Source: a virus (lineage: Duplodnaviria; Heunggongvirae; Uroviricota; Caudoviricetes). Taken from it: a DNA stretch of 3,958 bases. The first letter of the stretch is position 1. Every line of letters starts with the position of its first letter. The stretch lies in IMG/VR virus record IMGVR_UViG_3300029107_000050; one strand, written 5' to 3'. The position numbers were made by a program, and so were the translations under genes. The notes beneath the pieces are model-generated. The model made no database searches, was not told where the DNA came from, and was given only the letters and a program-made list of their open reading frames with translations. This document shows positions 1 through 3,958 of this stretch, one piece after another.

Positions 1-654
1 TCATTCTAGCATTTTTGTCTGGCCGGGAATGTCAGGCCAGATAATCGCCTCAACGTCCGCTTTGTTGGCGATGCTTGTGAAATCCAGTGCGTTCAGTGCG
101 TCAACGTAGTCAAGCCACGCATCCAGTGATGACTGCTCGTTTTCCGGCAGTGCACGACCAAGCAGCAATTTTGTCTGACCGACGACAAGCTGCGCTCGCG
201 CACGACTTAATAACATTTCGCGTTGCGATTCCGCCATTGTGAGCGCGGCACTGCGCTGTGCTTCCGTATCCGTCACCCACTTTTCACCGTCCCAGGTGTC
301 GTACTCTGTTGACGGCGGAAGCGTGGTTGTATTGTCGGGATACTCTCCGGGGGCAGTGATTTCCTGCGGCTCTCCCGTTTCTGTGTTGTAGACAGTCTCA
401 CCCCGATGGTCAGGCACATACTCCCACGCGGTCAGGTCGGCTGTGCGGCAAATTGCATAGCCTTCCCTGACTGCACCGGGCGCGTCCGGACAGGAATTGG
501 CCGGAATGCCAACGCCCACAGCCAGATATTCGGTTGACGTGCAAAGGTATTCCCGCGTCTTATTATCGTAGCTGTGGACAACAACCTCTCCTGCAACTGT
601 TGCCAGCCGCGATTCATTCAGCACCGCTGTAGTCATGGTTTTCTTGCTCATCAT
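1..654 (-). CDS. Tail fiber assembly protein (Tfa-type chaperone)
   Basis: 217-aa ORF from ATG 654..652 to TGA at 3..1, so the gene is complete and ends exactly at the window edge. An in-frame ATG at 636..634 (Met7) is an alternative start. The C-terminal region (...[38 protein letters not shown]...) resembles the conserved C-terminus of lambda Tfa / P2 gpG-type chaperones. It is translationally coupled to the fiber gene, the usual fiber-chaperone arrangement. Confidence 0.88.
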
Positions 655-1415
655 GCAGCCCTTACGATGTAGTTAAATGCAATGTTACGTGGCCTTGCAT
701 AACCCAGATACTGAATCCCCCAGGCTCCGGTCGGGAGAGGATTCCAGAGATATTCTGTAGGTATACTTTTTGCTCTGAGAATATCTGAATTGGTTTCAGT
801 TTTATCCCATCCCAGCAGGGCAATGTCGTTTGCCGAAAACTGCACCACGCTGTCGGGTGATATATTGGCTTCCTGAACCAGATAAGAGCCTTTTTGCCAC
901 GACAACAACGTCCGGCTACTGTCCACTCCGCGCCCGTCATCCCAGCCACGAATAAATTCACCACGTAAATCAGGCAATATATTTGTCGGGTAAGCCTTTG
1001 CCAGTTCCGGGTATTCTTCAGCAGAAAATGCCGCCCCGTTGCATTTCAGCCAGCCTGTTGGCGGTGTGGCTGAAGGCCACGGAACAGGCACACCAACGGG
1101 TAATGCAGAGCCTTCTCCCAGACCAAGGTTTTCGAGAGCCGTTTTCACCGTGCCATCCGATTTGATATCGCCAAACGGATTCTTGCGGCTTAACAGCAGC
1201 GCACGAAGCGCGGTAAGCAACTGGTCGTTTCGCCCCTTCTCCAGGCTGGCACCGGATGCCTCCACCACGCTGCAAAGCTCCTCCTGCAACATGTCAAAGT
1301 AGTCATCATCCAGATCGGTGGCAGGCGTGCCGGTCTGGGGGTTACCACGGGTAAAACCGTTCTTACCCGCGCCGAACTTATCCTTCTGCGCGGTTTTCGT
1401 GTCTATACGATGCAT
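651..1415 (-). CDS. Phage tail fiber protein with conserved N-terminal attachment region and tail-collar domain
   Basis: 254-aa ORF from ATG 1415..1413, with a GGAG 6 nt upstream that lies inside the end of the preceding gene, to TGA 653..651. The N-terminus ([29 protein letters not shown]...) is the conserved start I recall from enterobacterial prophage side-tail-fiber proteins. Residues ~117-170 (...[22 protein letters not shown]...[19 protein letters not shown]...) look like a phage tail-collar domain. The stop overlaps the start of the downstream chaperone gene (ATGA). Confidence 0.88.
1113..1138. other. Candidate Din-family (Hin/Gin/Cin/Pin) invertase crossover site inside the tail fiber gene
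   Basis: The 26-mer ttctcccagaCCAAGGTTTTcGAgag contains ACCAAGGTTTT-GA, matching 13 of 14 positions of the core plus one half-site of hixL (TTCTTGAAAACCAAGGTTTTTGATAA) as I recall it, and 17 of 26 positions of gixL. It encodes fiber residues ~93-102 ([10 protein letters not shown]), at the boundary between the conserved N-terminus and the collar/receptor-binding part. The partner inverted copy would lie outside the window, so this cannot be confirmed here. Confidence 0.35.
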
Positions 1416-1418
1416 GGA

Positions 1419-2003
1419 TTACTCCGGATATTTAAAAATTACGTAGGTATGCGACGGGCAGAGTTTGTTAAGCACACACTCGACAACGGTGTCGCCCCAG
1501 ATACGCAGTGCGGAATCACAGGGATCGCCACATGTCATCCAGGTGGTGTTGGTGGCGGCTGGCATGTTGACCTGCCAGTAATACCGCCATTCCGGCGCAT
1601 TCACTGCGTCAGTACAGGCCGATGAGCAGGTGAACGTGCTTTTATCGTATCGCGTGATGGTGGCGTCTGGTCTGCCCAGGGCAGCAAGCTGTGCAAGGTA
1701 AAAATCCTCATTGATGCCGCCCGCCAGATTAACCTTCGCATCCAGCCGTTGCTGACGCTGGCGAAGGGTCTGCGTTCCCGCCGGAATACATTCATCCGGC
1801 AGGCCGCACAGACGCTCCCAGCGGTTTATCAGTTCAGTGGTGGTGCGCGGATCCAGCTCCCGCATCAGGGCATCCGCACGCTGATGAACGCGGGTTAATG
1901 ACGGTGCCGCACCGGCAATCGCCGGATCGCTGGCTGACCACGCCGGACCGGGGGGCAACAGTGCCGACAACAGACGGATGTAATCATCGTTTGTCACGTC
2001 CAT
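1419..2003 (-). CDS. DUF2313-family phage tail protein (YmfQ-like / Mu gp48-like)
   Basis: 194-aa ORF from ATG 2003..2001 (GGGGA about 7 nt upstream) to TAA 1421..1419. Its position between the J-like gene and the tail fiber, its length, and its sequence ([25 protein letters not shown]...) match my recollection of the YmfQ/DUF2313 family from e14-like prophages. It contains 8 cysteines arranged in four closely spaced pairs. Confidence 0.85.
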
Positions 2004-3052
2004 GAAATCGTCCCCAGTACCGCCAGTTCATTTTTTGCAATGGAGATATTGTCCGCCGGTGCAAGCAACTGATGGCTGTATTCCCCGTTCGCACCGGAAA
2101 TCGCCTCACTGATACGCGATACCTTCAGTTCTCCCTGCGGATAACCATCACGCAGCAGGAACGAACGCAACTCCGCGGTGATGGCAGCCCGTATTTCCGG
2201 TGTGTCCGGCGTCACGCGGATATGAAAATCCACCGTATGTGCCACCGGCCTGAACACATACAAATCAGAGCCTGCCACCGGGGCCAGTGGCCCGATATGT
2301 TGTCTTGCCGCCGTTTCCGTTGATTCTTCCGGAATGGGATTAATCAGGTCACTGCTGGCAATCATCACACCGACAGTTCCCGTACCCATCCAGTGACGGT
2401 ATGTCCATGCGCGGGTAATGCCGGGCACTTCTTTAGCCCAGACGACATAGTCCCCGTCAGCCCCGCCCTGAGGCGTCCAGTAATACCGCTCAATGACGCG
2501 GGCGCGCCACGTTTCCAGATCTTCAGTATCAAATCCACCTGTCAGTGTATCTGCCACGCCGGAAGACGGCAGACCATTCACCGGCGTGACCAGGATTAAT
2601 GCCGTACCGTCGTCAGCGTTACCGACCACGCCTGTAGTTGAGCAGGTGATCGGCACGCGCAGGACACCACCGGAGCTGGTTGCATCAGCAGTTGCCGTGT
2701 ACTGAACCAGGTCATCGCGCTGAATAACACTCCCGGCGGTCACCTTCAGGCCATCGCTGACACCTTCCCAGCGCATATACCCGCTGGCAGCCGTGGCCCC
2801 CTTGCGCGGACACCGTTTCATCGCAGCATGTCGCGCCAGCCAGGACTCATCGCACAGGTCAGGCAGCATGTTCATTGCCAGATAATCGATGTACCCGTAA
2901 ACCGTATGCAGCGCCGCCGCATACACCTTTGCCCGCACGTCTTCATCCATGCGCCGGAGCGTGTCGCTGACGTCCAGCCTGGCGAATAAATCGTTACGGA
3001 GCATACTGATATTTTCTGCCAGCGTCGGGCGCTGAAATTCACTGTCCGCCAT
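1994..3052 (-). CDS. Baseplate J-like protein (Mu gp47-like baseplate wedge protein)
   Basis: 352-aa ORF from ATG 3052..3050 to a stop at 1996..1994, with a GGAG about 11 nt upstream of the start. Its length and position after the gp46-like gene fit the baseplate J/gp47 family, as do motifs such as ...[37 protein letters not shown].... It overlaps the downstream gene by 10 nt. Confidence 0.88.
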
Positions 3053-3467
3053 GCGTTATCGCACTCCACAGATCATCAAAAGAAATCATTACCGGTCCGT
3101 CACGACGCCAGAGAGTGATACTGTTACCCAGTTCATTAATCCCGGTGCGGCGGATATCCAGATCAATACGGGACACCACGCCGTCATCAATCATCCATTG
3201 CAGGCATTCGCGGATATACCCCCTTACCGTCTGCACCAGCTGATTGGTCAGTTTGCTGCGCTGAAGCAGCCACAGTCGGGAGCCGTAACGGTCATTCTGT
3301 ACCGCAGGCCAGGTATCCCCCCACCATCCCATCGGGACGTCGGCGTTGTCATCAGGCTCCGCCCGCCGCCAGGTGAACAGGGAAATCACCACGGCGCGGG
3401 TCAGCGGATCCAGCGGTGCGCTGGCGCAGGTGCGTTTACCGTTCACCGTCAGCCACAGTTCCATCAT
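3039..3467 (-). CDS. Phage GP46-family baseplate protein (Mu gp46-like, functional analogue of gpW/gp25)
   Basis: 142-aa ORF beginning with tandem ATG codons (3467..3465 and 3464..3462) and ending at TGA 3041..3039. A GGAGG Shine-Dalgarno lies immediately upstream (minus-strand ...GATGGAGGC-ATGATG). Size and sequence fit the small baseplate protein that follows gpV in Mu-like tail modules. The 3' end overlaps the next gene by 14 nt. Confidence 0.85.
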   Translation of the reverse strand: MMELWLTVNGKRTCASAPLDPLTRAVVISLFTWRRAEPDDNADVPMGWWGDTWPAVQNDRYGSRLWLLQRSKLTNQLVQTVRGYIRECLQWMIDDGVVSRIDLDIRRTGINELGNSITLWRRDGPVMISFDDLWSAITHGGQ

Positions 3468-3958
3468 GCCTCCATCGCTTTATCAGGTTTGTCGGTGTTA
3501 CTGCCCTGACCGTTCTCTCTGTGACGATGCCCGTTATAGGCAAGCCGCATCGCTGACATGGTGGTGCCGCCGGAGTCGCACAGGTCTTTCACCTGTCCTG
3601 TCACTTCCAGGTCCATTTCAAAACGTGCTCTGGGCGCATTGCGAAACGTGATCGTTTTACCTGCACCGTCCACCACGATCCCCTCCCGGGCCAGCGTCAC
3701 GGACTGCCCCTGATCGTCATAGACAGCCACCTCACCCGTCTGCAGCCCTTTCAGGCGGTAGCGCCGGTCCGACACCGTAACAACCACCGCATGAGAACGG
3801 TCGCCATCCGGAAACAACACCACCGCTTCCGCACCGCTGTTTGCCCTTGCGGTAAAACCGTAGGGTTCAAGATGTTCAACCCCGGCTTTGGGTTCACCGG
3901 CAATCAGGGACACATCCACGGTCTGACATTTCGTGGCGGCACTGATGCTTTTCACCAC
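3464..3958 (-). CDS. Phage baseplate assembly protein V-like (Mu gp45-like baseplate spike/hub); 5' end at or beyond the window edge
   Basis: Open frame of 164 codons running from the window edge (first in-window codon GTG at 3958..3956) to a TGA at 3466..3464. The translation (e.g. ...YRLKGLQTGEVAVYDDQGQSVTLAREGIVVDGAGKTITFRNAPRARFEMDLEVTGQV...) matches my recollection of the gpV/gp45 baseplate family. Its stop overlaps the next gene's start in an ATGA arrangement. Mu gp45 is about 197 aa, so the true start is probably upstream of the window. Confidence 0.8.
   Translation of the reverse strand: MVKSISAATKCQTVDVSLIAGEPKAGVEHLEPYGFTARANSGAEAVVLFPDGDRSHAVVVTVSDRRYRLKGLQTGEVAVYDDQGQSVTLAREGIVVDGAGKTITFRNAPRARFEMDLEVTGQVKDLCDSGGTTMSAMRLAYNGHRHRENGQGSNTDKPDKAMEA

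What the first reader, a model, noticed from the sequence alone, without database searches (positions are those of the whole stretch)
1113..1138. Probable invertible host-range cassette: hix/gix-like crossover site inside the tail fiber gene
A sequence closely resembling the core and one half-site of Din-family recombination sites sits in-frame in the fiber gene, exactly where the conserved N-terminus ends and the collar/receptor-binding part begins. In Mu (G segment), P1 (C segment) and e14 (P segment), a serine invertase swaps the fiber C-terminus and its chaperone for an alternative pair encoded in opposite orientation. If that applies here, bases ~1..1126 are one half of an invertible segment, with the alternative fiber end, chaperone and invertase lying just beyond base 1. 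The short fiber (254 aa, only ~96 aa of constant region) and the window ending exactly at the chaperone stop fit an e14-type convergent tfa/tfa' layout. This is a known class of system, not a novel one.
Basis: partly seen in the sequence, partly recalled or inferred. Interest (0 to 1): 0.55.

Follow-up and report, generated by a model that had tools for sequence, protein, structure and literature searches.

The report
e14-type pixL site in fiber gene
The flagged 26 bases are a near-exact copy of pixL, the known crossover site of the E. coli e14 prophage tail-fiber inversion switch, but the closest relatives with known flanks have lost the partner site and the invertase, so here it is probably a locked relic of an ordinary, well-described system.

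Summary
Window 1113-1138 (TTCTCCCAGACC AA GGTTTTCGAGAG) matches the published e14 Pin site pixL at 25 of 26 bases. It lies in frame in the 254-aa fiber gene (codons 93-101, ALENLGLGE), exactly where homology to e14, SfV, SfI, SfII and SfIV stops.

The window is an e14/SfV-type tail module. Its constant part is 97% identical to e14. The StfE-like collar end and a TfaE-like chaperone sit in the expressed position. Relatives show the full system: an inverted pixR partner, a silent alternative fiber end with its own chaperone, and a pin gene. Both orientations occur in hundreds of E. coli genomes, and K-12 e14 itself is deposited in both.

The window's own flank is not available. The two closest relatives are a metagenome contig (98.7% identical) that shares the window's exact end, and strain 600055 (97%). 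Both have no partner site and only a truncated invertase remnant. The window's site also carries a G at a position that is A or T in all 40 published Din half-sites. This variant was found only in the expressed configuration and never beside a demonstrably intact system; one distant phage pairs it with a full-length recombinase and a diverged partner.

Verdict: a known system, most likely locked here. Low interest.

The parts
1113..1138 (.). pixL-type Din/Pin crossover site, TTCTCCCAGACC AA GGTTTTCGAGAG. The core AA is at 1125-1126. The inner (variable-side) half is 1113-1124 and carries the unusual G at 1121. The outer (constant-side) half is 1127-1138.
   Evidence: 25/26 identical to published pixL. 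Homology breakpoint to SfV-group phages and e14. The same position holds a pixL-type site in all 10 loci that encode the window's exact YmfQ protein.
1127..1415 (-). Constant N-terminal part of the tail fiber gene (aa 1-96). It stays attached to the baseplate module whichever way the segment faces.
   Evidence: 101 of 105 aa identical to e14 StfP/YcfK over aa 1-105; DNA 97% identical to e14 from base 1111 onward.
651..1126 (-). Variable C-terminal part of the fiber (aa 97-254). It has a tail-collar domain and a receptor-binding tip, and is StfE-like.
   Evidence: Pfam Collar at aa 108-155. Bases 928-1131 are 93% identical, in inverted orientation, to silent stfE of e14; protein aa 96-254 aligns to StfE with 98 of 173 aligned columns identical, and the tip is diverged.
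1..654 (-). Tail fiber assembly chaperone (217 aa), TfaE-like. It travels with the variable fiber end.
   Evidence: Pfam Caudo_TAP, E = 4e-26. 120 of 204 aligned columns identical to e14 TfaE; DNA 245-692 is 69% identical to e14 tfaE in inverted orientation. The 3' end (1-244) is shared only with L011/L010 and, less closely, L001.
1419..2003 (-). YmfQ / Mu gp48-like baseplate protein (context; constant module).
   Evidence: ORF; annotated as YmfQ family in L001 and L002; the exact protein is very widespread (27,633 index blocks) and hits Pfam Phage_Mu_Gp48.
1994..3052 (-). Baseplate J / Mu gp47-like protein (context).
   Evidence: ORF; annotations of relatives.
3039..3467 (-). Mu gp46-like baseplate protein (context).
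   Evidence: ORF; annotations of relatives.
3464..3958 (-). Baseplate assembly protein V / Mu gp45-like, running off the window end (context).
   Evidence: ORF; annotations of relatives.

Best explanation
The 26 bp are the fiber-gene crossover site (pixL type) of an e14 P-segment-type tail-fiber inversion switch of the Din/Pin serine-invertase family. In the intact system a Pin dimer binds each of two inverted 26-bp sites: pixL inside the fiber gene, and pixR next to the pin gene. Pin cuts both sites at the central AA/TT, rotates the strands and re-ligates. That flips a segment of roughly 1.8-2 kb holding two convergent pairs of fiber C-terminus plus chaperone, so the constant 96-aa N-terminus becomes fused in frame to one receptor-binding end or the other. 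The window shows the state in which the StfE-like collar end and its TfaE-like chaperone are expressed. In the lineage that carries this particular variable half, the switch appears to have been disabled: the partner site and the alternative fiber end are deleted, and the invertase is truncated. The site itself carries a synonymous A-to-G change at a position that is A or T in all published Din half-sites. So in this locus the site most likely no longer recombines. It persists because it encodes the conserved ENLGLGE linker, and it marks a module junction. Shown: the identity of the site, the architecture, inversion in the family, and decay in the two nearest relatives. Inferred: that the window's own unseen flank is decayed in the same way, and that the G weakens the site.
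For: Site identity: 25/26 to published pixL, with 0 of 200 shuffles giving a hit. Architecture: window 1111-2781 is 97% identical and collinear with e14 stfP-N/ymfQ/jayE, while 928-1131 and 245-692 match silent stfE and tfaE of e14 in inverted orientation, with the join at pixR. Partner sites identical to pixR, inverted relative to the fiber site and with the same AA core, occur in L002, L003, L009, L013, L015, L020 and L024. A predicted flip of L002 gives an in-frame fusion, and both predicted junctions exist in real genomes. The canonical collar module is expressed in 687 and silent in 842 of 5,426 E. coli genomes. K-12 e14 occurs in both orientations. Inversion by PinE, PinQ and PinR has been shown experimentally (PMC4272514; PMC12529663). 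Decay near the window: L011 and L010 share the window's exact bases 1-40 and are 98.7% (L011, window 1-1563) and 98.6% (L010, window 1-562) identical. Past base 1 they carry only a 59-aa tfa' C-terminal fragment (Caudo_TAP profile 94-128) fused to an invertase remnant. That remnant covers Resolvase profile 79-144, equivalent to Gin residues 71-144, has its HTH in another frame, and lacks the catalytic N-terminal part. There is no partner site within 8 mismatches. L001 (97%) has only PinE aa 144-184 and no partner. The G variant: position 9 is A in 36 and T in 4 of 40 published half-sites, never G or C. The variant occurs in the expressed configuration in 2 E. coli genomes (plus one 95% match whose variant base was not checked) and 3 viral contigs, and in the silent configuration in none. 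In L002/L013, L003, L001 and L011 the invertase lesions differ: a frameshift, a cdt-island truncation and two different deletions.
Against: The window stops at base 1, so its own flank was never seen. L011 is 98.7% identical, not identical, and the exact 40-mer or 26-mer from the window's end is absent from genome contigs and viral contigs. Loci that encode the window's exact YmfQ protein often carry an intact resolvase gene and a pixR (L024 and others), so live cassettes are common on this backbone. L012, a more distant phage, combines the same G-variant site with a full-length recombinase, a silent alternative end and a diverged partner, so the G need not kill the site. The G-variant counts are small and not independent. 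Pin-family invertases act in trans (PMC12529663), so loss of the local pin gene does not by itself prevent recombination if a partner site exists.
Confidence: 0.65

Rival explanations
1. Live switch. The window is the expressed half of a currently invertible segment. An alternative fiber end, a convergent chaperone gene, an inverted pixR and an active pin gene lie just beyond base 1, and the phage or prophage alternates between two host-range specificities.
For: The site is 25/26 pixL with an intact AA core. The same backbone, with an identical YmfQ protein, frequently carries a full-length resolvase gene plus pixR, and the collar module is often the silent partner (L024, L020, L027). L012 shows the G-variant site next to a full-length recombinase and a complete two-module cassette.
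Against: Both sequences that share the window's own tfa allele and extend past it (L011/L010 and L001) lack the partner site, the alternative fiber end and a functional invertase. The G-variant module was never found in the silent configuration, whereas the canonical module is silent in 842 genomes. Four assemblies that carry the identical fiber run straight through the site and break elsewhere, at window position 508.
Confidence: 0.25
2. Orphan site used in trans. The locus has no partner in cis, but the site remains a substrate for Pin-type invertases encoded by other prophages in the same cell. It recombines with pix sites of those prophages, producing large inversions or deletions, or module exchange between phages. 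That would explain why fiber mosaics break at this sequence.
For: PinQ and PinR from other cryptic prophages invert the e14 segment in trans (PMC12529663). Strain 600055 carries the orphan G-variant site (L001) and, 113 kb away on the same chromosome, a P2-like cassette with an intact recombinase and pixR (L009). Homology between unrelated phages starts or stops at the site (SfV group, HK97, P2-like).
Against: No rearrangement joining this site to another prophage was observed. The G at an A/T-only position may reduce binding. Mosaic boundaries can also arise by homologous recombination within the conserved coding motif.
Confidence: 0.07
3. Chance or a purely protein-driven resemblance. The DNA matches Din sites only because the fiber needs the peptide ENLGLGE, with no recombination history.
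For: The site lies wholly in coding sequence, and the peptide is conserved across fibers.
Against: The match covers 25 of 26 bases including synonymous positions, and no shuffle gives a hit. The collinear e14 locus, 97% identical, has experimentally proven inversion at this very sequence. Relatives have pixR, pin and both orientations.
Confidence: 0.02

Closest known systems
E. coli K-12 cryptic prophage e14: invertible P segment with pixL, pixR and PinE (Plasterk and van de Putte 1985, as cited in PMC4272514; PMC12529663)
   Same: Same gene order and strand (jayE-ymfQ-fiber-tfa). The constant part is 97% identical at the DNA level. The site differs from pixL by one base. The crossover falls in the same codon. 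The variable half is homologous to stfE and tfaE. The window corresponds to the flipped e14 state seen in MG1655 assembly CP032667.
   Different: A9G in the inner half-site. The receptor-binding tip (about aa 170-240) and the tfa C-terminus are diverged (98 of 173 and 120 of 204 aligned columns identical). The baseplate module is complete here (intact J, gp46, V) rather than truncated. In the nearest relatives pixR, the alternative StfP-type end and pin are missing or degraded.
Shigella and E. coli Mu-like-tail temperate phages SfV, SfI, SfII, SfIV
   Same: 97.7-97.9% DNA identity over window 1112-3958 (baseplate V, gp46, J, gp48 and the fiber N-terminus). SfV carries pixL exactly at the same place, with no invertase and no partner, so it is also an orphan site in a fixed fiber.
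   Different: The fiber C-terminus and chaperone beyond the site are unrelated. SfV has the canonical A at position 9.
Mu G segment/Gin, P1 C segment/Cin, p15B Min, Salmonella Hin/hix (the other Din-family systems)
   Same: A 26-bp site made of two 12-bp half-sites around a 2-bp core. The site is embedded in the fiber gene in Mu, P1 and p15B. A serine invertase gene lies next to the segment, and the fiber C-terminus is swapped together with its chaperone.
   Different: Only 16-20 of 26 identity to hix, gix, cix and mix sites. gix has a GA core. Hin controls a promoter rather than a fiber gene.

Membership tests
Din/Pin-family invertible tail-fiber cassette (e14 P-segment type) | A 26-bp crossover site: two imperfectly symmetric 12-bp half-sites around a 2-bp core, matching family sites | tested here: met
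   25/26 to published pixL, AA core, and 0 of 200 shuffles give a hit. One deviation: a G at half-site position 9, which is A or T in all 40 published half-sites.
Din/Pin-family invertible tail-fiber cassette (e14 P-segment type) | The site lies in frame inside the fiber gene at the junction of the constant N-terminus and the variable C-terminus | tested here: met
   Codons 93-101, with the core in codon 97. Homology to e14 and the SfV group ends at 1111-1112. The collar domain starts at aa 108.
Din/Pin-family invertible tail-fiber cassette (e14 P-segment type) | A second site in inverted orientation with an identical core dinucleotide, within a few kb | tested here: inconclusive
   None inside the window. 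The window ends before the place where it would lie. Absent from the nearest relatives L011/L010 and L001. Present as exact pixR in L002, L003, L009, L013, L015, L020 and L024.
Din/Pin-family invertible tail-fiber cassette (e14 P-segment type) | An alternative start-less fiber C-terminus plus its own tfa, convergent with the expressed pair | tested here: inconclusive
   Not in the window. L011 has only a 59-aa tfa' C-terminal fragment. L001 instead has a second same-strand tfa and an acetyltransferase gene. Present in L002, L003, L008, L012 and L015.
Din/Pin-family invertible tail-fiber cassette (e14 P-segment type) | An adjacent serine invertase gene (about 180-190 aa, Resolvase plus HTH_7 domains) | tested here: inconclusive
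   Not in the window. In L011 it is truncated to the equivalent of Gin residues 71-144 with a frameshifted HTH. L001 has only aa 144-184. It is frameshifted in L002/L013 and truncated in L003. It is full-length in L008, L009, L012, L015 and L024.
Din/Pin-family invertible tail-fiber cassette (e14 P-segment type) | Both orientations observed for the segment | tested here: inconclusive
   Met for the family: predicted junctions found, 687 genomes expressed versus 842 silent, and K-12 e14 in both states. Not met for the window's G-variant module: 0 silent copies. No read data are available for the source.
Din/Pin-family invertible tail-fiber cassette (e14 P-segment type) | A Fis-dependent recombinational enhancer inside the 5' part of the invertase gene | not testable with these tools
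   The invertase gene is outside the window, and its 5' part is deleted in the nearest relative L011. No enhancer analysis was attempted.

The most novel reading that the evidence does not exclude
Site-first locking. A single synonymous A-to-G change (TTG to CTG, Leu99) in the inner half-site put a G:C pair at a position that every published Din half-site keeps as A:T. From my recollection of the Hin-hix work, not checked here, this position is read through the minor groove. On this reading the change crippled recombination and froze the StfE-type fiber in the ON state. Afterwards the now useless invertase, partner site and alternative end decayed independently in different lineages: a frameshift in L002/L013, a cdt-island insertion in L003, and different deletions in L001 and L011. 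That would be a natural example of a phase-variable host-range switch fixed by a silent point mutation in its recombination site, with pathogenicity cargo (cdtABC, an acetyltransferase gene) later occupying the vacated space.
Probability: 0.2. Interest if true: 0.3.

Novelty: already known. Interest (0 to 1): 0.15.

Why it matters
It matters little for discovery. The e14 P segment with Pin and the related Gin, Cin and Min systems have been textbook examples of fiber-switching inversion since the 1980s, and this locus is a 97%-identical relative of e14 and SfV. The practical value is in annotation. The 254-aa fiber is a complete StfE-type fusion, yet PGAP marks its near-identical counterparts in L001 and L002 as truncated pseudogenes. 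The 26-bp motif is a reliable marker of the junction between the constant and variable fiber parts, which helps when predicting or engineering host range. The mix of orphan and decayed switches among close relatives also illustrates how prophage cargo, such as cdtABC, sopE or an acetyltransferase gene, settles at this position.

Tried and rejected
1. Locating the window's own source.
- The exact 217-aa Tfa protein is not on record.
- The exact 40-mer of bases 1-40 is absent from genome contigs and viral contigs.
- A 26-mer from bases 60-85 is absent from genome contigs. It found only two overlapping metagenome contigs, L010 and L011.
- There is no plasmid match to bases 1-700.
- The exact fiber protein gave contigs that either end at window position 508 or carry a different tfa.
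- The exact YmfQ protein is too widespread to pinpoint a source.

2. The generic inverted-repeat finder did not report the pixL/pixR pair in L002, because the arms are only 20/26 alike with short exact seeds. A dedicated mismatch scan was needed.

3. My first loose motif, AAACCNNGGTTT, missed the site because of the G variant.

4. Rfam found no RNA family in the window or in L011.

5. I considered whether the G variant proves the site dead. I rejected this as a firm conclusion, because L012 couples the G variant with a full-length recombinase and a complete cassette.

6. I considered that the window ending at the tfa stop indicates a convergent tfa' immediately beyond. I rejected this, because the nearest relative has a 1.1-kb spacer there.

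Full report
**What is in the window.** All real genes lie on the minus strand and form the distal part of a Mu-like/SfV-like contractile-tail module (annotations of relatives):

| Window | Gene |
|---|---|
| 3464-3958 | Baseplate V / gp45-like, cut by the window end |
| 3039-3467 | gp46-like |
| 1994-3052 | Baseplate J / gp47-like |
| 1419-2003 | YmfQ / gp48-like |
| 651-1415 | 254-aa tail fiber with a Pfam Collar domain at aa 108-155 |
| 1-654 | 217-aa tail-fiber assembly chaperone (Caudo_TAP) |

**The observation.** The flagged 26 bases, TTCTCCCAGACC AA GGTTTTCGAGAG, are at 1113-1138. The published table of Din-family sites (PMC3241671 Table 3) gives pixL of e14 as TTCTCCCAAACC AA GGTTTTCGAGAG and pixR as TTCTCCCAAACC AA CGTTTATGAAAA.
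- The window site is therefore pixL with one substitution: 25/26. It matches pixR and mixQ''R' at 20/26, hixL, cixL, cixR and mixN''O' at 19/26, and gix at 17/26.
- Searching the window with published pixL at up to 3 mismatches returns only this position, and none of 200 shuffles gives a hit.
- On the coding strand the site spells A93-LENLGLG-E101.
- The site is a sharp homology boundary. SfV, SfI, SfII and SfIV are 97.7-97.9% identical to the window from 1112 to 3958 and unrelated before that. HK97 stf and several other fibers match only about 928-1136.

It is stronger than "core plus one half-site".

**Relation to the archetype.** I fetched e14 from K-12 C600 (L015). Its order is mcrA, pinE, silent stfE, tfaE, then convergent tfaP, stfP (ycfK), ymfQ and jayE.

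| Window | e14 (L015) | Identity | Orientation |
|---|---|---|---|
| 1111-2781 | stfP N-terminus, ymfQ, jayE | 97.1% | Collinear |
| 928-1131 | Silent stfE, ending at pixR | 93.1% | Inverted |
| 245-692 | tfaE | 69% | Inverted |

The window is thus an e14-type locus in the flipped state, with the constant N-terminus joined to the StfE-type collar end. The MG1655 assembly CP032667 shows e14 itself in exactly this state (L018). So the same element is deposited in both orientations. Inversion of this segment by PinE, and in trans by PinQ and PinR, is experimentally documented (PMC4272514; PMC12529663).

**The family is a working switch.**
- In L002 (strain 720632, 95.8% identical to window 245-3958) the fiber site is at 6869-6894. 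An inverted partner identical to pixR is at 4918-4943, next to a recombinase gene. Between them lie a start-less gp53-like fiber end with its tfa', convergent with the window-type tfa and collar end.
- I built the two junctions that a flip of L002 would create. The fiber junction is in frame (...[17 protein letters not shown]...). Both junctions exist in real genomes: H101-H103 for the fiber junction, and H126-H129 for the recombinase-collar junction.
- L008 has the same baseplate module with an intact pinE. L009 is a P2-like prophage that holds the collar module silent next to its recombinase.
- Among 5,426 complete E. coli genomes, the canonical collar module is joined to the constant region in 687 and to the pin-proximal half-site in 842.
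- All ten loci retrieved through the window's exact YmfQ protein have a pixL-type site at the same place. Seven of them have a full-length resolvase gene called.

**The window's own lineage looks locked.** The window ends at the tfa stop, so its flank must be inferred from relatives.

Only two sources share the window's tfa 3' end.

The first is the pair of metagenome contigs L011 and L010. They are identical to each other where they overlap. L011 is 98.7% identical to window 1-1563, and both contain window bases 1-40 exactly. L011 runs 1,710 bases past base 1, and L010 adds 57 more. That stretch contains:
- About 1.1 kb of AT-rich non-coding DNA with terminator-like hairpins.
- The last 59 codons of a convergent tfa' (Caudo_TAP profile positions 94-128 only).
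- Directly fused to that, a serine-invertase remnant. It covers Resolvase profile 79-144 and matches Gin residues 71-144 in the PDB. Its HTH is in another frame. It is 49% identical to PinE and lacks the catalytic N-terminal part.
- No sequence within 8 mismatches of either pix site.

The second is L001 (strain 600055, 97% identical over 19-3958). It has a second same-strand tfa, a serine acetyltransferase gene, a 41-aa PinE HTH remnant and the prophage end next to dacD. It also has no partner site.

Other close relatives are crippled in different ways:
- L002 and L013 have a frameshifted pin.
- L003 encodes the identical 254-aa fiber and has an intact pixR, but pin is cut after about 40 codons by a cdtABC/IS66 island.

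SfV, a viable phage, also carries an exact pixL with no invertase and no partner. So orphan sites are normal in this lineage.

**The G variant.** The one difference from pixL is A-to-G at half-site position 9 (window base 1121). It is a synonymous TTG-to-CTG change in Leu99.
- Across the 40 published half-sites this position is A in 36 and T in 4, never G or C.
- In exact-word searches the G variant occurs in the expressed configuration in only 2 complete E. coli genomes (plus one 95% match whose variant base was not checked) and 3 viral contigs. It occurs in the silent configuration in none.
- It travels with the collar module, because it lies in the inner half-site. All ten YmfQ-matched loci have A at this position.
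- This fits a weakened or relaxed site, but the numbers are small and the lineages are related.
- L012, a more distant phage (65% identical baseplate genes), combines the same G-variant site with a complete two-module cassette, a full-length recombinase and a diverged partner, TTCTCTCAATTG AA CGCTTTCAATAA.

I therefore treat "the G kills the site" as a hypothesis, not a finding. The idea that this position is read in the minor groove by Hin-type invertases comes from my memory of the Hin-hix literature and was not checked here.

**Conclusion.** The site is a genuine Pin-type crossover site and the architecture is e14-type. The prediction that a partner, an alternative fiber end and an invertase lie just past base 1 holds for many relatives. 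It fails in the two sequences that actually share this variable half. I put about 0.65 on a locked relic, about 0.25 on a live switch, and the rest on trans use or chance. Novelty: already known. Interest is low.

**Limits.**
- The window's true flank was never seen.
- L011 is close but not identical to the window.
- No read-level data were available.
- Enhancer and Fis requirements could not be examined.

Noticed in passing
L003 2366-5098: A contig that encodes the identical 254-aa fiber has an intact pixR, then only about 40 codons of pin. After that come cdtA, cdtB and cdtC and an IS66 element. A cytolethal-distending-toxin island has replaced the invertase of the cassette.
   Followed up: partly
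L022 and L025, 8282-10092: In loci with the window's exact YmfQ protein, a sopE gene (SopE_GEF domain) sits between the fiber chaperone gene and a 187-aa resolvase gene. This is effector cargo at the same position, as I recall for SopE-phi.
   Followed up: no
L001 4434-5963: In the closest complete genome, the place of the alternative module is taken by a second same-strand tfa gene and a serine acetyltransferase gene. Only a 41-aa PinE HTH remnant survives.
   Followed up: partly
L011 608-1710 (directly beyond window base 1): A 1.1-kb AT-rich spacer (GC 0.35-0.45) with three terminator-like hairpins and one 82-aa ORF that has no Pfam match. Bases 711-1451 are 82% identical to intergenic DNA of a P2-like prophage in ST131 genomes (L016).
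   Followed up: partly
window 508 (L004-L007 contig ends): Four independent metagenome or Logan assemblies that carry the identical fiber all stop at window position 508, inside tfa. This points to a repeat boundary (a conserved tfa N-terminal domain shared with other prophages). None of them breaks at the pix site.
   Followed up: no
L001 about 7071-7096 and L009 5338-5363 (both NZ_CM129037.1): Strain 600055 carries the orphan G-variant site and, 113 kb away on the same chromosome, a P2-like prophage with an intact recombinase gene, pixR and a silent collar module. Recombination in trans between the two prophages is conceivable but was not examined.
   Followed up: no
L014 1-62: The stored locus from an IMG/VR viral contig begins only 36 bases from the G-variant site. 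This may be an assembly or provirus-boundary break at the site.
   Followed up: no
L001 6852-7373 and L002 6650-7171: PGAP annotates the near-identical short fiber gene as a pseudogene 'missing C-terminus', although the 254-aa ORF is intact and recurs unchanged on six contigs. This looks like an annotation artefact for StfE-type fusions.
   Followed up: partly
L019, L021, L023, L028 6866-6891: Loci with a 510-aa fiber and a full-length 187-aa resolvase gene have a pixL variant (TTCTCCTAAACC inner half) but no partner within 6 mismatches of pixL or pixR. Their second site must be more diverged.
   Followed up: no
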